Positions 1 to 5,158 of a stretch of 20,000 nt of DNA are shown one piece after another. The translations under genes were made by a program, and so were the position numbers. The DNA is from an uncultured virus (IMG/VR IMGVR_UViG_3300028394_000079) (lineage: Duplodnaviria; Heunggongvirae; Uroviricota; Caudoviricetes). The notes under the pieces were generated by a model. That model saw nothing but the letters and a program-made list of their open reading frames with translations, was not told the origin of the DNA and ran no database searches. Each line of letters begins with the position of its first letter. Position 1 is the stretch's first letter. Location: the IMG/VR virus record IMGVR_UViG_3300028394_000079; one strand, 5' to 3'.

Positions 1-3000
1 GTGCCGCTACTAATTCATCAGAGTCGTCGTAGTATGGGCCGGGATTTTCTAACAAAGTTGTGCTGTCGTCCGGATCATATGACATGTAAACAACGTCAGG
101 CTCACCCTTGTTGTAGTCTTCAAATGTTATCTTGTTCCAGTTGTCAGGTATGTATTCTTCATTCCAAGTCATGCGGCCAACAGCTTTAAACCCATTGGCG
201 TGGTAAAGGGTGGGAAGAATTGTGGCAAATGCGTCAAGCCTTCTACCGCCTTCTTGTACCGCTAACTGGAGCGATGAGTTGGCAGATCCTCTGTGTGGCT
301 TACCTGAGAAGACGGAAACAATATCGTCTTTCTTAAGGGCAATGCCAGACTTACCATCTTGGGTTAAGAACAGGCGCATCTTGGCGTAGTCCTCTACAGG
401 ATACACAAAGACAGCCGCACCATATTCAGTTGAATCTTTGGATGCCTGAATGGCATCCGCATATGTCTGAGCATCATCACCGCTAATCTCATAGAACACG
501 GGCGATTCAAACCCGTGGTCGCTGATGATGTCTTTAAACCCTTGAGTAGGTCTGTATCGGGCAATTGGCGCTACGCCTAGAACCCGAATTCCTTCGCCAT
601 CTTCAATGCTTTCTCGCGTGTGAGTCCCGGGTTCAGATTCATTGCGTCCTCTATAGGATCGTACGGCTTCTCTGAGGGAGTATTTTGGCCCGTAGTCAGA
701 CTTCCCACGAAGTTCCTCAGCGTTCTTGACCGCTCCTCCGGATTCATCCCTGCCGTTAAGTTCTGTATCGAAGACCACACTGGGTCTTGCTCGTCCAGTA
801 GTCTTTCCGGACTGAGCGATGATTGCTTCTTCGTATCCGATGTCATCGGCTTTCCTTCCGCTTAGTTTTTCGTAGAGGCGTTTCTCATAATACCAAAGAG
901 CCGCTTGGATGTCAGCTAAAGTTAAATTAATGCCGTCTTTACGCAACATAGTTTGCGCTTTACGGCCTGCGTCATACATGAACTTGCGGTCGGTAGCTGT
1001 AAACGGTGCTTCCTCCAGCATCTCAAATTCATTCTTGTAGATGGTGTTAGCCATCTTCTCAAGGTTGTGTTCAAACAACAGTTGGTCGTAGGCGGCTCCG
1101 GCTTTGGCTTTGGCTTTCTTAAACCATGCTGGTTTCTTGTCTTTCTTGGCAGGCTCTTTCCCCTTAGCCAAATGCTCAAGCTCAGTGCTATAGCCGTATT
1201 CCTCGTACTTATTACGCAGGGGAATCGTAGCGGCAATCACTTCATCACGGGTTGCGCTAGGCATTTCCATCATGTCACGGAACTTGTTAATAGACGCTTC
1301 AGTTGCCTGAGGAATTAACAAGCCACGCATCCGGTTGACAGAGCGAGTCCACCACAGATCCATGGTGAGATAGCCCTCTGAGCCAGAGAGGTTGGCGTAG
1401 AACGCACCCAGCTTAGGCCCAAAGTAGACTGCGGCGGCAGGGACAGTCGTGTCCTTGAGGTAGCTACCATCAGTGTCTTCACCCATCTCACGCAGACGGG
1501 CATTCATTTCTTTGACCGTAATTTCTTCTAAGAGAACCTTCTCAAACTTTGTGCCGTGCAGATTAAGCAGGTCTTGGATCATCTTGAGGTTGTTCTCAAG
1601 AGCGGTAGCTCTACGGTTGCCCATGGCAATCAGAGGCTTACCATCACGCAGTTTGGAATACAGCGTGATAGCGTTAGTAATGTTCTTGTTAACCTTTTCA
1701 CCGTTAGATGTAACTGCCACCAATGCAGAGAATACAGAACGGGCGTGTTTGTTATCGCTCAGTTCAGGGAAACGGCTTGCCAAGCGTTTAACCGCCTTGG
1801 GATAGTTGTTTGAATACCAACCCAGACCTGTACCAGTTGTGGCTTGAGTGCCCAATTGGAATGCAACCTCATCTGCCATTGCCCTAGCAAGCTGAGTAGA
1901 TTGCTCTTCGCTCAAGTTGCTTCGATCCATCTGGCCGAAACGATCTATGGTGTATTGGTTTAAAGCACTGGCGATGTCCCGGACATTATTGAATATGCCA
2001 CGCTTGGCCTTGGTGTTTAAACCAAGATCCTGCTGGGACGCAGTCATGTCCTGCTCCATAAAGTTACGGGTAGACAGCGGCGTATAAACGGGCTGTTTTT
2101 CATCCCCGTAGAAAGCGCCAAAGGATGTAAGCGACTTCTTAACTTCTTTGTTTGCCTCGGCAGGCTTAGAAGGTTTTAGTTCACCCTTCTCAATCTTGCC
2201 AAAGATGTCCTTGTAGGACTCGTAGCCTTGACCATTGAGGTATGACTTGAGGGTAGAGAAGAAGTTGCGGAGTTTGTTCAGCAACGCAGTCAACATTCCC
2301 GGAGGAGCCTTGTTAGCATCAAAGTCACCAAAGGCATCTGCGATTGCTTCTTCCAGAATGTCTGCTTCGTTTAAACCCATCTCAACATAGGCATCGTACC
2401 GGCTGACAACTCGCCCGTCGGATGTCTTTGTTTGATTGTTCTTAAGGTACTTGTCTACCCACTCAGCTTTAGCTTGACGCTCTAAAGAAGCCCACTGGGA
2501 ATCAGTAAAGAACCCTAGTTCTTTTAAAGCATGGAGGGCTTCATGGCGCATAACCCTTACAGGGTTCTGTGCATCGATAGCTAACTGGATAACCTTAGCG
2601 GCATAGGAGCCATCTGCGCCCTGTTCAATGGCATTAACAATCTTTAGGGCTACATCCTGTAGGCCAAACCGTCCCAACATGGATTGGAGGGAAGCTTGTA
2701 CGGCTTGAAGCCCTTGTGTTTGTTCTGGTGTTCTAGGTGCTGGTGCTGGCGCTGTAGACCGGCGGGCAATCTCTGCGTTTAAACGAGCCTTTAACTTAGG
2801 AGATTTGGTTTTTGCCAACTCTTGAATTTCTTTGTCTGACAGGTCTTCAAAGATAGATTGCTCGGCTTCCTCACGGGTAGCCTTGGTTCCTTTAACAACC
2901 TGACCCTTGGTAACTCGGTATGTCTTGGGCGTAACCTTCTTTGTGCCAACAGGCACAACAGTGACAGGCCTGCTATAGATCTCTTCTTGATTCTTAAGGT

Positions 3001-5158
3001 TAGCAATGACGGGCATAGCCTCGTCTAGCACGGCTTGGTGCGCTTCTTCTGCAACCTTATATGCGGGGGTATCAACCAACCCATTGAGTTCAAACTTGTG
3101 CAGTTCGTTCTCGGACTTAGTAATCTTTGCGTCTTGAGCCTTTAAAGCTTCTTGCGTTTTCTTAAGTTCACCCTGTGCAAAACTGTTTAGTTTCTCAGCA
3201 TGAGTATTGGCTTGCTCCATGGTGTCCATAGAGCGAACCTTTTGGTCACCGCTCATGACATCATAAGATTCTGCCTGCTCTTCTTCTTGCCCAACTTCCT
3301 CCTGAATGTTGTATCCAGTAGGTGTGGTACGTGAGGGAACACTAACTTTCTTGTCTTCCGTGACAATACTTCCGTTCTTAGTTGCATCGTTAAGCAAGGC
3401 ATTAACGGCAGAACCCTTTAGTCCTGTGGCCGTCTCTATGGCTGTTGTTGTTTCTTTAAACGTTAACTCATCCTTACCAACTTCATCCATCTTGGCGTTT
3501 AAAGCATCTACAGCCTGTGTAACTTGTTCAGGTGTGTAGCGTGTAGCGTTAGTGCCTTCGGGTAGGGCTTGCTTAGTCTCAAATGTAGGGAGCTTCTGTA
3601 GGGCTGTAACCGCAGAATGCAACTGGGGCTGAGACATCTGAGCAAGATCAGCGATGCCAGTTGATCTAGAAAGGAAGTCCCCAAACCCGGGAGCGTTTAC
3701 ATCCACATTCTTTTCAGTAGCCAGCGCAGTTACCGCGTCAGGCGTGTAAACCTGATCTGTGTGACCGGTCTTCTGGGCGATCAATGCGTTTAAAGCGGCA
3801 GTCTCTTTAGCTACATCTTTGCCCGGCAGGGCATCAACCACATCATCCAAACTGTACGCAGATAGCGTAGGCTTACCTGTTGCTGTCCGGTGCTCGTTTA
3901 CATATGAGGTTAACTCAGGGCCAAGGTCAGCCTCTGTCAAAGCACCAATAGGGTTCTTAACAACCTCCATCTGCTTGGAGATTACTGCCCGCTTTTCTTC
4001 AGCTAGTTTGGTGTCTTCAGCCCTGCGCTTCTCAAACTCTGCGTTCTTGACATCTTCAGGATTAATTGTGGGTTTACCACCAGAGATAGCACCTGCACCA
4101 CCACCGATAAGGCCTGCGCCTAAAGCGGCTTGACCTAGGGTTTGTCCTAGTCCGGCAGTGAGACTTTGCTCTGGATTGACTTCACGCAAGGCAAGGTTCT
4201 GGGTAACTTTACCGCCACCCTCTTCAACCATTTCCTCAGGGATATTCTTAAGAGCGCCAGCGATTGCACCTTTAATACGACCTGTACCAAGTCTTTCGCC
4301 TGCAAGGGCACGTTCTAGGGCTTGTGCACCGGGTAATTTCTGTGCCAAAAGGGAAATAGCCGCACCACTTACTCCGGAGGCTCTGGCAAGGTTTAAAGCC
4401 TCTGCCGAAGCCTGAGGCTCGGACATGCCTTTTTCCTTCATCAGGTACTGTTTGATCTCCTCAAAGCTACCTGAGCCGATGTCTGCGCCCTGTTGGGCGG
4501 CTCCAGTGCCAATAGCGGCGGCAGTACCACGAGCTATTTGGGATTTTTTAGCGGCATCTTCAGCTAAATCAACAATGGCTTTGGCGGCTTTTTCTTTAGC
4601 GGCATTACCGACTGCGGCCTTGGCGGCAGTCTGAGCGGCACGTAACTCTGCGGCGGCGGCAGGGCCAACACCGGGAATAGCGGCGGCAAGAATAGAAGGG
4701 ATAGCCTGAGGAAGTTGCTCTGCGGCAAAACCGATACCCTGAGTTAAAGGGTTCTTAAGGACTTCACCAAACTGAGTGCCTAAGGCTGAAAGAACACCCT
4801 TTTTCTCGGCTTCTTCAACCTTACGGGCAGTTTCTGCTTCTTCAGATACAAGCTTTTCAGAAAGCTTCTTCTTGGCATAGTCCTGTAATTCTTGACCTAG
4901 GCCTTGCAGGCCAGTGGTTCCAAAGTCTTTCTCTTTGATAGCACCTGTAGTCAGGCCATAGATCTGACCGGGGAACTGAATTAATGAGCCAATGCCTGAG
5001 GCAAACTTAGCCGCAGGGTCGGTAAAGGCTTCAGTAACTGTGCGCTCTTTAACGGGGCGTGACGTACCGCCTAGCTCTTTGGCTAATTTCTCTAGATTAA
5101 CTGGTTCAATTTTGGTTGAAACACCGCCATACTGTTTTGCCAGTTCTTCTAGATCCAT
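1..5158 (-). CDS. Giant polyvalent / internal virion protein (at least 1719 aa, 3' end outside window) with HExxH metallopeptidase, HhH-glycosylase-like and GNAT-like domains
   Basis: Not in the ORF track. ATG at 5156-5158 overlaps the upstream stop (TAATG) and follows a GGAG SD. Manual translation shows no stop from 5158 to 2: MDLEELAKQYGGVSTK...RHEALHALKELGF (HEALH 2531-2545)...EEAIADAF...GWYSNNY...GPKLGAFYANL...TMDLWWTR...DIQAALWYYEK...RLDAFATILPTLYHANGFKAVGRMTWNEEY...PDVVYMSYDP. Confidence 0.93.
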   Translation of the reverse strand, partial: MDLEELAKQYGGVSTKIEPVNLEKLAKELGGTSRPVKERTVTEAFTDPAAKFASGIGSLIQFPGQIYGLTTGAIKEKDFGTTGLQGLGQELQDYAKKKLSEKLVSEEAETARKVEEAEKKGVLSALGTQFGEVLKNPLTQGIGFAAEQLPQAIPSILAAAIPGVGPAAAAELRAAQTAAKAAVGNAAKEKAAKAIVDLAEDAAKKSQIARGTAAAIGTGAAQQGADIGSGSFEEIKQYLMKEKGMSEPQASAEALNLARASGVSGAAISLLAQKLPGAQALERALAGERLGTGRIKGAIAGALKNIPEEMVEEGGGKVTQNLALREVNPEQSLTAGLGQTLGQAALGAGLIGGGAGAISGGKPTINPEDVKNAEFEKRRAEDTKLAEEKRAVISKQMEVVKNPIGALTEADLGPELTSYVNEHRTATGKPTLSAYSLDDVVDALPGKDVAKETAALNALIAQKTGHTDQVYTPDAVTALATEKNVDVNAPGFGDFLSRSTGIADLAQMSQPQLHSAVTALQKLPTFETKQALPEGTNATRYTPEQVTQAVDALNAKMDEVGKDELTFKETTTAIETATGLKGSAVNALLNDATKNGSIVTEDKKVSVPSRTTPTGYNIQEEVGQEEEQAESYDVMSGDQKVRSMDTMEQANTHAEKLNSFAQGELKKTQEALKAQDAKITKSENELHKFELNGLVDTPAYKVAEEAHQAVLDEAMPVIANLKNQEEIYSRPVTVVPVGTKKVTPKTYRVTKGQVVKGTKATREEAEQSIFEDLSDKEIQELAKTKSPKLKARLNAEIARRSTAPAPAPRTPEQTQGLQAVQASLQSMLGRFGLQDVALKIVNAIEQGADGSYAAKVIQLAIDAQNPVRVMRHEALHALKELGFFTDSQWASLERQAKAEWVDKYLKNNQTKTSDGRVVSRYDAYVEMGLNEADILEEAIADAFGDFDANKAPPGMLTALLNKLRNFFSTLKSYLNGQGYESYKDIFGKIEKGELKPSKPAEANKEVKKSLTSFGAFYGDEKQPVYTPLSTRNFMEQDMTASQQDLGLNTKAKRGIFNNVRDIASALNQYTIDRFGQMDRSNLSEEQSTQLARAMADEVAFQLGTQATTGTGLGWYSNNYPKAVKRLASRFPELSDNKHARSVFSALVAVTSNGEKVNKNITNAITLYSKLRDGKPLIAMGNRRATALENNLKMIQDLLNLHGTKFEKVLLEEITVKEMNARLREMGEDTDGSYLKDTTVPAAAVYFGPKLGAFYANLSGSEGYLTMDLWWTRSVNRMRGLLIPQATEASINKFRDMMEMPSATRDEVIAATIPLRNKYEEYGYSTELEHLAKGKEPAKKDKKPAWFKKAKAKAGAAYDQLLFEHNLEKMANTIYKNEFEMLEEAPFTATDRKFMYDAGRKAQTMLRKDGINLTLADIQAALWYYEKRLYEKLSGRKADDIGYEEAIIAQSGKTTGRARPSVVFDTELNGRDESGGAVKNAEELRGKSDYGPKYSLREAVRSYRGRNESEPGTHTRESIEDGEGIRVLGVAPIARYRPTQGFKDIISDHGFESPVFYEISGDDAQTYADAIQASKDSTEYGAAVFVYPVEDYAKMRLFLTQDGKSGIALKKDDIVSVFSGKPHRGSANSSLQLAVQEGGRRLDAFATILPTLYHANGFKAVGRMTWNEEYIPDNWNKITFEDYNKGEPDVVYMSYDPDDSTTLLENPGPYYDDSDELVAA
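577..846 (-). CDS. Nested (overprinted, +1 frame) 89-aa helical protein inside the polyvalent gene; candidate immunity/antitoxin
   Basis: ATG start with AAGGA SD 6 nt upstream, matching the RBS of bona fide genes here. Protein-like sequence ending DPIEDAMNLNPGLTREKALKMAKEFGF. Host-frame codon usage is distorted over this interval. Confidence 0.7.
   Translation of the reverse strand: MTSDTKKQSSLSPERLLDEQDPVWSSIQNLTAGMNPEERSRTLRNFVGSLTTGQNTPSEKPYDPIEDAMNLNPGLTREKALKMAKEFGF
853..857 (-). promoter_or_regulatory. Shine-Dalgarno AAGGA for nested ORF 577..846
   Basis: Minus strand reads GGAAGGAAAGCCG-ATG. AAGGA with a 5-7 nt spacer also precedes the starts at 6585, 9425, 14343, 16176 and 18171. 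Confidence 0.6.

What the first reader, a model, noticed from the sequence alone, without database searches (positions are those of the whole stretch)
577..846. Overprinted gene in the linker between two effector domains of the polyvalent protein: candidate built-in immunity system
Seen: an 89-aa ATG-started ORF in the +1 frame of the giant gene, with AAGGA 6 nt upstream, the same SD and spacing (5-7 nt) as five genuine genes in the window. It starts just after the glycosylase-like domain ends (WYYEK, about 880-895) and stops before the GNAT-like domain. Over this stretch the host frame turns into an R/G/E/S-rich linker with rare codons: by hand count 8 of 10 Arg are CGA/AGA/AGG/CGG and 10 of 12 Gly are GGA/GGG, versus about 15 of 17 CGT/CGC and about 17 of 20 GGT/GGC in 900-1860. 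That is the expected footprint of selection on the alternative frame. The nested product reads as amphipathic helices ending NPGLTREKALKMAKEFGF. Inference: a virion-delivered toxic domain must be neutralised during late synthesis but active after injection, and an inhibitor encoded inside the same gene would stay linked to its domain during domain shuffling. The host-frame KYSLR boundary (671-685) falls inside the ORF, so it may be a fusion of two inhibitors, one per flanking domain.
Basis: partly seen in the sequence, partly recalled or inferred. Interest (0 to 1): 0.88.

Follow-up and report, generated by a model that had tools for sequence, protein, structure and literature searches.

The report
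Hidden gene inside phage giant-protein linker
A small, previously unannotated gene is read in a second frame inside the spacer between two domains of a giant phage virion protein, and its product is predicted to clamp onto the neighbouring acetyltransferase-like domain, which would make it a built-in safety catch for an injected enzyme.

Summary
Window 577-846 (minus strand) holds an 89-aa ATG-started ORF in the +1 frame of a giant virion gene (2-5158, minus). In 40 of 40 homologous loci (26 distinct peptides) the ATG is kept and the frame stays open for 54-89 codons. From the ATG onward the most variable codon position moves from host position 3 to host position 1, which is the third position of the nested frame. 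Host synonymous diversity falls from 0.49 to 0.18 (p=3e-7). Homologues also exist as free-standing genes with their own ribosome-binding sites in integrase-bearing islands of Limnohabitans/Burkholderiaceae. One group of these is a captured fragment of the phage gene, in which the nested frame is intact and the host frame has acquired stops.

The protein has two helical modules. The N-module occurs in every locus with the upstream DUF7178-like domain. The C-module occurs only where the GNAT-fold domain follows (23 of 23 loci against 0 of 21). A controlled complex prediction places the C-module on the cofactor cleft of that domain (ipSAE 0.85, best control 0.00).

This fits a built-in inhibitor, but neither toxicity nor inhibition has been tested. 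The label 'glycosylase-like' for the upstream domain is not supported.

The parts
577..846 (-). Nested gene, 89 aa, in the +1 frame of the giant gene. ATG at 846-844, stop TAG at 579-577.
   Evidence: ATG kept in 40 of 40 homologous loci, with the ORF open for 54-89 codons. Selection acts on this frame.
853..859 (-). Ribosome-binding site GGAAGGA, formed by the host codons Gly-Arg-Lys, 6 nt before the ATG.
   Evidence: The Gly codon is GGA or GGG in 27 of 27 unique relatives, although 79% of the gene's Gly codons are GGT or GGC. The Arg codon is AGG or AGA in 22 of 22. The same AAGGA spacing precedes five other genes of the window.
685..783 (-). N-module core (nested residues 22-54, two helices; motif WSSxxNLTxGMxPEERxxxLxxFVxSL), overlapping the variable host linker.
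   Evidence: AF2 helices 22-31 and 36-54. In the linker, nested-frame identity is 0.52 against 0.36 for the host frame, over 27 unique loci.
580..669 (-). C-module (nested residues 60-89, two helices; motif YDPIEDAMxxNPxLTREKAxxMAxxFGF). This is the predicted GNAT-binding part.
   Evidence: AF2 helices 64-71 and 77-86, block pLDDT 86-89. Interface residues 62-89. Nested-frame identity 0.64 against 0.48 for the host frame over 15 unique embedded stretches.
2..5158 (-). Giant polyvalent virion protein gene (host frame), 1719 aa within the window. It continues past the window: the same frame is still open at the end of L001.
   Evidence: The neighbouring genes encode virion, tail-fibre and endolysin proteins.
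587..769 (-). Host-frame R/G/E/S-rich linker between PSVVF and RVLG. It is poorly conserved in the host frame and uses atypical codons.
671..685 (-). Host-frame KYSLR, one copy of a recurrent x-S-L-R inter-domain motif. It falls between the two modules of the nested protein.
   Evidence: There are five such sites in L001 and six in L031.
2..586 (-). GNAT-fold domain of the giant protein. It starts at RVLG, immediately after the nested stop, and its core ends near window 70.
   Evidence: AF2 pLDDT 76.9, pTM 0.72. Foldseek gave 65 PDB matches with E<=0.001, and all listed rows are acetyltransferases or GNAT-type proteins.
770..2041 (-). Upstream conserved domain (host residues about 1040-1463), DUF7178-like and of unknown function. 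Its last 27 codons overlap the start of the nested gene.
   Evidence: Weak Pfam match to PF23802, E 0.0041, below the curated cut-off. Atlas feature hits 0.95-0.96 to viral DUF7178 clusters. Gapless conservation in 21 unique loci.

Best explanation
Window 577-846 (-) is a real, separately translated gene. It lies out of frame inside the inter-domain linker of a giant phage virion (polyvalent) protein, and ribosomes start at an internal Shine-Dalgarno sequence plus ATG on the giant gene's mRNA. In this stretch the small gene is the selected reading, and the host-frame linker is largely whatever the other frame leaves.

The 89-aa product has two helical-hairpin modules. The C-terminal one docks on the acetyl-CoA/substrate cleft of the GNAT-fold domain that begins right after its stop codon. 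Most likely it keeps that domain inactive while the giant protein is made and packaged. Because inhibitor and domain share DNA, they move together when domains are shuffled.

Shown: the gene is real, it is modular, it co-occurs with the domain, and the domain has a GNAT fold.
Predicted in silico: the binding and where it occurs.
Inferred: inhibition, toxicity of the domain, and timing.
Unknown: the role of the N-module.
For: 1. Conservation. ATG in 40 of 40 loci; ORF open 54-89 codons; 26 distinct peptides.

2. Frame of selection. In the 200 host codons upstream, variability peaks at host position 3 (0.29-0.58). From the ATG on, host position 3 falls to 0.12-0.25 through host codon 49, and the peak moves to host position 1, the nested third position. 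At host-conserved codons, synonymous diversity is 0.176 (16 codons) against 0.489 (96 codons), Mann-Whitney p=3e-7. The Asp codon that supplies the ATG is GAT in 27 of 27. Amino-acid identity is 0.52 nested against 0.36 host in the linker, and 0.64 against 0.48 over the C-module.

3. Independent existence. 70 small proteins were found with the profile. In L032-L045 the gene stands alone, with the other two frames closed within a few codons, GGAG/AGGAGG upstream and classical third-position variability of 0.098/0.063/0.233. L056, L059 and L060 are captured fragments of an L031/L058-type giant gene (94.9% identity over 295 nt). Their nested frame is intact, while the host frame has stops in L059 and L060.

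4. A distant clade (L064, L073, L076, L081 and the cultured Limnohabitans phage DC33) has a second variant nested at the same place, with GGAG 7-8 nt before the ATG.

5. The C-module is present in 23 of 23 embedded loci where the GNAT-like domain follows, always with its motif 47 nt before the domain. It is present in 0 of 21 where another domain follows.

6. GNAT fold.

7. Complex prediction. ipSAE 0.85 (runs 0.86, 0.85, 0.83), best of 3 controls 0.00. That mark was reached by 116 of 157 solved complexes and 2 of 215 mismatched pairs. The runs agree in at least 49% of contacts, and the partner's pLDDT is at least 57. The interface is nested residues 62-89 against domain residues 87-98 (end of strand 4 and the loop before helix 3), 116-125 (after strand 5 and helix 4), and others. 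From recalled general knowledge of the GNAT fold, that is the acetyl-CoA site.
Against: - There is no direct evidence of translation.
- Toxicity of the GNAT-like domain is unknown, and Pfam, NCBIfam and PADLOC do not recognise it.
- The complex score is a model's own confidence. My own alignments were used, so the calibration holds only roughly. GNAT toxin-antitoxin complexes have been solved (recalled), so some of the pass could be memory of that kind of interface.
- A chaperone, packaging adaptor or activator would bind too.
- Free-standing homologues have no GNAT-like gene within 3-4 kb, so the protein may have a function that does not need that domain.
- The N-module is kept in 21 loci without a GNAT-like neighbour, so at least half of the protein does something else.
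- A second, divergent GNAT-like domain in L025 and the Microbacterium phage MuF-GNAT fusions have no nested C-module.
- Co-occurrence is partly trivial, because the C-module's DNA also encodes the segment just before the domain.
- The nested frame is not codon-adapted either (0.535).
Confidence: 0.55

Rival explanations
1. It is a real overlapping gene that binds the GNAT-like domain, but as a folding or packaging chaperone, adaptor or activator rather than an inhibitor. Alternatively its main job lies elsewhere (regulator, anti-defence factor) and the predicted contact is incidental.
For: The N-module is conserved in 21 embedded loci with no GNAT-like neighbour. Free-standing copies sit in islands with no GNAT-like gene in the fetched flanks. 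No known family, fold or defence model matches. The C-module also ends an unrelated 204-aa island protein, as a portable docking tail would.
Against: The predicted interface covers the cofactor and substrate cleft rather than a peripheral surface. The C-module strictly follows the GNAT-like domain, 23 of 23 against 0 of 21.
Confidence: 0.33
2. The +1 frame is reached by programmed ribosomal frameshifting from the giant gene. This would give a truncated giant protein with an alternative tail, not a separate small protein.
For: Both frames are open and conserved across the junction. Frameshift products are common in phage structural genes (recalled).
Against: The +1 frame is closed by a stop 2-25 codons before the ATG in all 25 first loci, and only 2 codons before it in L016, L017 and L020. 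The ATG (40 of 40) and a purine-rich SD are kept through rare codons. Free-standing homologues start at the equivalent position with their own SD. Suppression of host synonymous sites begins at the SD/ATG.
Confidence: 0.04
3. It is not a gene. The open frame and its conservation are by-products of host-frame constraint, linker composition or an RNA element.
For: In this one sequence the ORF is only mildly unlikely: P(open >=89)=0.094 and P(ATG)=0.49. The first 22 codons are largely forced by the conserved host motif DDIGYEEAIIAQ..PSVVF.
Against: The nested frame is better conserved than the host frame exactly where the host frame is free. Codon-phase variability follows the nested frame. Free-standing copies keep only this frame, and the host frame decays.
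Confidence: 0.02

Closest known systems
Rz/Rz1 spanin genes of phage lambda (recalled, not tested here)
   Same: A small gene lies entirely embedded in the +1 frame of a larger phage gene, and the two products bind each other.
   Different: Rz1 is a lipoprotein of the lysis machinery. Here there is no signal peptide or Cys. The host is a giant multidomain virion protein, the overlap sits in an inter-domain linker, and the predicted target is an enzyme cleft.
comS nested out of frame in the giant srfA synthetase gene of Bacillus subtilis (recalled)
   Same: A small protein gene is hidden out of frame in a very large modular gene and translated from an internal start.
   Different: ComS acts on an unrelated pathway (competence), not on the product of its host gene. 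It is not in a phage.
GNAT-type type II toxin-antitoxin pairs (TacAT, AtaRT, KacAT; recalled)
   Same: A small modular protein whose C-terminal helical part is placed on the acetyl-CoA cleft of a GNAT-fold protein encoded right beside it (here a prediction).
   Different: No RHH/DUF1778 domain was found. It is not a two-gene operon, because the small gene overlaps the large one. The GNAT is an internal domain of a virion protein, and its toxicity is unknown.
Polymorphic toxin / immunity pairs, including phage MuF toxins (PMC5576092 and PMC3482391, seen as search listings and abstracts only)
   Same: Shuffled effector domains travel with a cognate small protein, and orphan immunity-like copies occur elsewhere.
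   Different: In those systems the immunity gene is a separate ORF downstream of a C-terminal toxin. Here it is upstream, out of frame and inside the same ORF. The Microbacterium MuF-GNAT fusions related to this domain lack the module.
Polyvalent proteins of phages and conjugative elements (PMC5512222; passages read)
   Same: A giant virion protein that strings together effector-type domains (GNAT, a metallopeptidase-like HExxH, ART-like domains in relatives), presumably delivered with the DNA.
   Different: That paper's main text has 0 occurrences of 'overlap' or 'linker'. A gene nested in a linker is not part of the described picture.

Membership tests
Overlapping (nested) protein-coding gene | Alternative frame open, with its start kept, across homologues | tested here: met
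   ATG in 40 of 40 loci; open 54-89 codons; 26 distinct peptides. The variant-B clade also has ATG plus GGAG.
Overlapping (nested) protein-coding gene | Purifying selection on the alternative frame (suppressed host synonymous change, codon phase of variability) | tested here: met
   (p=3e-7).
Overlapping (nested) protein-coding gene | The product is made (translation) | not testable with these tools
   Only short contigs from RNA libraries cover the stretch. They show neither transcription nor translation.
GNAT-type type II toxin-antitoxin system | Toxin partner has the GNAT fold | tested here: met
   AF2 plus Foldseek: 65 matches with E<=0.001, and all listed rows are acetyltransferases or GNAT-type proteins. 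Sequence profiles find nothing.
GNAT-type type II toxin-antitoxin system | Antitoxin carries an RHH/DUF1778 DNA-binding domain | tested here: not met
   No Pfam or NCBIfam match at E<=1 apart from chance rows. The model is all-helical with no strand. No fold match.
GNAT-type type II toxin-antitoxin system | Antitoxin C-terminal region occupies the toxin's acetyl-CoA site | tested here: inconclusive
   Predicted only: ipSAE 0.85 against best control 0.00, with the interface on the strand 4 / helix 3 loop and the strand 5 / helix 4 region.
GNAT-type type II toxin-antitoxin system | GNAT is toxic and is rescued by the small protein | not testable with these tools
   Needs co-expression assays.
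Polymorphic toxin / immunity pair | Immunity gene is a separate ORF immediately downstream of a C-terminal toxin domain | tested here: not met
   The small gene lies upstream of the domain and out of frame inside the same ORF. The domain is internal, and the giant frame is still open at the end of L001.
Rz/Rz1-type embedded pair | Small gene wholly embedded in the +1 frame of the larger gene | tested here: met
Rz/Rz1-type embedded pair | Lipoprotein signal and lipobox Cys in the embedded product | tested here: not met
   The sequence has no Cys and no hydrophobic N-terminus.
Polyvalent protein (Iyer et al. 2017) | One polypeptide with several conflict-type domains, encoded by a phage and associated with the virion | tested here: inconclusive
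   More than 1719 aa. GNAT fold, HExxH at window 2531-2545, and relatives swap in other domains after the linker. The gene sits among virion genes. Packaging and delivery were not tested.
Programmed frameshift product | Alternative frame reachable from the host frame without a stop, and no start of its own needed | tested here: not met
   Stops lie 2-25 codons before the conserved ATG, and the gene's own SD and ATG are conserved.

The most novel reading that the evidence does not exclude
The polyvalent protein is built from cassettes in which an effector domain brings its own inhibitor, written out of frame in the linker DNA in front of it, so recombination moves weapon and safety catch as one block. 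Host mobile islands have then captured these inhibitor genes (L056, L059 and L060 are visibly cut out of a phage giant gene) and keep them beside restriction and nuclease genes. There they would disarm the effector that the phage injects. That would be a defence class based on stolen phage self-immunity.
Probability: 0.22. Interest if true: 0.92.

Novelty: new variant of a known kind. Interest (0 to 1): 0.82.

Why it matters
Giant polyvalent proteins are thought to deliver enzymes into the host together with the phage DNA. How the producing cell is spared, and how domains can be shuffled safely, is an open question. A partner protein encoded out of frame in the linker of the same gene would answer both, and annotation pipelines cannot see it: the cultured phage DC33 record lists only the 3125-aa CDS.

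This is also an unusually clean natural case of dual coding. The overlapped frame has free-standing homologues and caught-in-the-act captures, so the direction and cost of overprinting can be studied.

If host islands use captured copies against the phage, that would be a new defence principle. A cultured phage-host pair exists for testing it.

Tried and rejected
- Known families for the small protein: Pfam, PHROGs, NCBIfam and PADLOC gave nothing. The ESM Atlas gave no usable hit. Foldseek against the PDB gave 0 matches at E<=0.001.
- Sequence profile of the GNAT-like domain against PDB sequences: only spurious rows (designed TIM barrels, a TAL effector).
- Megablast of the region against phage records: no match. 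P0062 against viral contigs: 18 pattern matches, none confirmed.
- Internal promoter: a sigma-70-like site (915-887, minus strand, 10 of 12 matches with TG) lies 40 nt before the ATG. However, 2 sites were found where shuffles give 0.9 +/- 1.1, and its bases sit at freely varying synonymous positions in relatives. Rejected as conserved.
- Which frame is older, judged by codon usage: both frames are poorly adapted (0.585 and 0.535), so there is no verdict.
- RNA evidence: contigs from 4 metatranscriptome runs of 4 studies lie within window 638-997, and three of them only within 654-865. Contigs cannot show transcript ends. The pattern most likely reflects assembly of the low-variation overlap shared by strains, and DNA carry-over is not excluded. 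It is not used as evidence.
- Single-sequence statistics do not establish the ORF.
Full report
**What is there.** The window is a phage structural region: virion proteins, tail fibre and assembly proteins, and an endolysin, all on the minus strand. The largest gene is window 2-5158 (-), 1719 aa, and it runs off the window. In the near-identical contig stretch L001 the same frame is still open 1433 codons after window position 1300. The ORF in question is 577-846 (-), 89 aa, ATG at 846-844, in the +1 frame.
- AAGGA lies 6 nt before the ATG, and the same AAGGA at 5-7 nt precedes five other genes.
- WYYEK is at 895-881 and KYSLR at 685-671.
- The Arg and Gly codon counts are exact.
- Host-frame codon adaptation in the overlap is 0.585, against 0.752 +/- 0.041 elsewhere in the gene.

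On this sequence alone the ORF is only mildly improbable: with synonymous recoding, P(open >=89)=0.094 and P(ATG)=0.49.

**Comparative test.** A scan of viral contigs gave 25 loci. Later scans raised the number of loci carrying the host motif WYYEKRLY.KL[ST]G..ADD to 40. Some are the same contig held in two collections. They comprise 27 unique nucleotide stretches and 26 distinct nested peptides.

- The ATG is present in 40 of 40 loci and the frame is open for 54-89 codons.
- The host alignment is gapless for 200 codons upstream. There, variability peaks at host codon position 3 (0.29-0.58).
- From the ATG on, host position 3 drops to 0.12-0.25 through host codon 49, and the peak moves to host position 1, the third position of the nested frame. 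The order position 3 > position 1 > position 2 holds in nested-frame terms.
- At codons where the host residue is conserved, synonymous diversity is 0.176 (16 codons) inside the overlap against 0.489 (96 codons) upstream (Mann-Whitney p=3e-7).
- The Asp codon that supplies the ATG is GAT in 27 of 27. The Gly codon of the SD is GGA or GGG in 27 of 27, although 79% of the gene's Gly codons are GGT or GGC.
- In the linker, nested-frame identity is 0.52 (BLOSUM62 2.64 per site) against 0.36 (1.26) for the host frame. In the upstream domain the relation is reversed, 0.44 against 0.74.
- Over the last 28 nested codons of 15 unique embedded stretches, including a distant clade, the figures are 0.64 against 0.48.

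In this stretch the small gene is therefore the selected reading and the R/G/E/S-rich host linker is largely its by-product. The exception is the short host motif x-S-L-R, which sits where the nested protein is itself variable.

**The protein exists on its own.**
- A profile of the nested peptides found 70 small called proteins among 604 candidates. They include types with different N-termini.
- A metagenome scan gave 51 loci. In L032-L045 the gene stands alone: the other two frames close within a few codons, GGAG lies 7-10 nt before an ATG, GTG or TTG start in 13 of the 14 (L039 reads GGAAAAG there), and variability is classical (0.098, 0.063, 0.233 for positions 1-3; 13 sequences).
- L056, L059 and L060 are captured pieces of an L031/L058-type giant gene. 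L056 450-744 matches L031 3995-4288 at 94.9%. They have a new N-terminus and an AGGAGG site. The nested frame is intact, the host frame carries stops in L059 and L060, and about 25 codons of the GNAT-like domain are left behind.
- The free-standing copies lie in mobile islands: tyrosine integrase, Mob_Pre relaxase, type I restriction enzyme (L032); HNH and NERD nucleases (L062); D5-type primase next to a tRNA cluster (L084).
- The genome scan confirmed 4 loci. The two strong ones name a Burkholderiaceae bacterium and a Limnohabitans MAG. The other two (E 1e-4 and 2e-4) are weak.

**Modules.** AlphaFold2 on 37 sequences gives four helices in two hairpins: 22-31 and 36-54, then 64-71 and 77-86. 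Mean pLDDT is 74, and pTM is 0.33, as expected for two loosely joined parts.

- The N-module is nested in every locus with the upstream domain, whatever follows.
- The C-module (YDPIEDAM..NPxLTREKAxxMAxxFGF) is present in 23 of 23 embedded loci where the GNAT-like domain follows, with its motif always 47 nt before the domain. It is present in 0 of 21 where another domain follows.
- In L005, L006 and L057 an insertion splits the gene into two ATG-started ORFs in the same frame, one per module.
- A distant clade (L064, L073, L076, L081 and the cultured Limnohabitans phage DC33) has a second variant, with a different N-part and the same C-module. It is nested at the same place before the same domain, behind a distant relative of the upstream domain, with GGAG 7-8 nt before the ATG. 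The DC33 record annotates only the 3125-aa CDS. Variant B also occurs free-standing (L083).

**The flanking domains.** The downstream domain is invisible to sequence profiles. It nevertheless folds with pLDDT 76.9 and pTM 0.72 and gives 65 Foldseek matches at E<=0.001, and all listed rows are acetyltransferases or GNAT-type proteins. The upstream domain is not glycosylase-like by any test. It gives a sub-threshold DUF7178 match (E 0.0041) and Atlas feature hits of 0.95-0.96 to viral DUF7178 clusters.

**Binding.** One controlled complex job (GNAT-like domain alignment A4 plus small-protein alignment A3, with the small protein as partner) scored ipSAE 0.85 (0.86, 0.85, 0.83), with the best of 3 controls at 0.00. 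That mark was reached by 116 of 157 solved complexes and 2 of 215 mismatched pairs. The runs agree in at least 49% of contacts, and the partner's pLDDT is at least 57. My own alignments were used, so the counts hold only roughly.

The confident interface is nested residues 62-89, the C-module only. On the domain it covers residues 48-50, 75, 87-90, 93-98 (VFSG..HRGSAN: end of strand 4 and the loop into helix 3), 116-125 (ATILPTL.HA: after strand 5 and helix 4), 152-154 and 170-177. By general knowledge of the GNAT fold (recalled), that is the acetyl-CoA and acceptor cleft. Solved GNAT toxin-antitoxin complexes exist (recalled), so part of the score may reflect likeness of kind. There is no detectable sequence or domain similarity to their antitoxins.

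**Most likely mechanism.** Ribosomes start at the internal SD and ATG on the giant gene's mRNA. No conserved separate promoter is seen. The small protein is therefore made whenever the giant protein is made. Its C-module caps the cofactor cleft of the adjacent GNAT-fold domain. The domain would be freed after packaging, processing or ejection.

The steps have different standing. Gene, modules, linkage and fold are shown. Binding and its site are predicted. Inhibition, toxicity and release are inferred. The role of the N-module is unknown.

**Evidence against the inhibitor reading.**
- Free-standing copies have no GNAT-like gene in the fetched flanks.
- The N-module persists without the domain.
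- A second GNAT-like domain in L025 and the Microbacterium MuF-GNAT fusions lack the module.
- Co-occurrence is partly forced, because the DNA is shared.

**Rivals.** The rivals are a chaperone, adaptor or other function; a frameshift product; and no gene at all. The last two are contradicted by stops 2-25 codons before the ATG, by the gene's own conserved start signals, and by the free-standing and captured copies.

**Literature.**
- The polyvalent-protein paper (PMC5512222; passages read with 'find') describes GNAT, ART and metallopeptidase domains and self-processing. It has 0 occurrences of 'overlap' or 'linker'.
- Searches for overlapping genes with polyvalent proteins found no described case among the papers listed.
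- A search for immunity proteins with overlapping reading frames listed no paper that holds 'overlapping reading frame'.
- Searches on MuF toxins and on antitoxins embedded in toxin genes likewise found no described case among the papers listed.
- I saw only listings and abstracts for those papers. One Synechocystis ribosome-profiling preprint listed holds the terms 'antitoxin' and 'alternative reading frame' and was not opened.

**Verdict.** This is a real and long-maintained nested gene (it is present in two clades whose upstream domains are only distantly related), with a strong in-silico case for binding the neighbouring GNAT-fold domain. It is a new arrangement of known principles, and a cultured phage is available for the decisive experiments.

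Noticed in passing
window 671-685 and 2126-2140 (-); L001 and L031 host frames: A short host-frame motif x-S-L-R (KYSLR, and KKSLT at residue 1007) recurs at domain boundaries: five sites in 2433 aa of L001 and six in 2740 aa of L031. New domains begin just after it. Together with an HExxH motif, this suggests self-processing sites.
   Followed up: partly
window 2531-2545 (-): HEALH (HExxH) lies in a conserved segment of the giant protein. It may be the metallopeptidase-type domain described for polyvalent proteins. Not modelled.
   Followed up: no
L056 415-681, L059, L060; L062 2812-3138: These free-standing small genes are visibly excised from a phage giant gene (94.9% identity to L031 over 295 nt). 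They retain about 25 codons of the GNAT-like domain as a decaying remnant, and sit beside HNH and NERD nuclease genes.
   Followed up: yes
L084 3509-4123; L069 1334-1963; L056 2745-3065 (-); L062 2017-2415 (-): The C-module also forms the C-terminal tail of a 204-aa island protein. That protein's N-part ('KDGDLAVV...') is a separate gene in other islands, so the module behaves as a portable tail.
   Followed up: partly
L084 4135-4581, L070 3089-3556, L075 3111-3557, L083 2150-2650: A conserved protein of about 148 aa and no known family (MLIVEMVRGE...AWDD) directly follows the variant-B free-standing gene in L084, L070 and L075. In L083 a related 166-aa ORF lies about 1.3 kb upstream instead.
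   Followed up: partly
window 638-997: Short contigs from four metatranscriptome libraries of four studies cover only this part of a 1001-nt query, and three of them only 654-865. This is probably an assembly effect of the low-variation overlap.
   Followed up: partly
L087 (PQ492659.1, Limnohabitans phage DC33): This cultured phage has the nested variant-B ORF unannotated inside a 3125-aa CDS. The record's taxonomy line reads Inoviridae, which looks odd for a 39-kb genome with such a gene.
   Followed up: partly
L025 1198-1632: A second, divergent GNAT-like domain is fused directly behind another domain, with stops in the +1 frame and no nested module.
   Followed up: yes
L045 225-719: This free-standing copy has lost the end of its C-module. 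The frame reads on into a basic tail, for 158 aa in all.
   Followed up: no
L013, L014, L019, L020, L007/L008 host frames after the linker: The domains swapped in after the linker include several with an MYHG[TL]/MFHGS...IFVT/IFVS pattern that, from memory, looks like ADP-ribosyltransferases. I did not check whether they have nested partners of their own.
   Followed up: no
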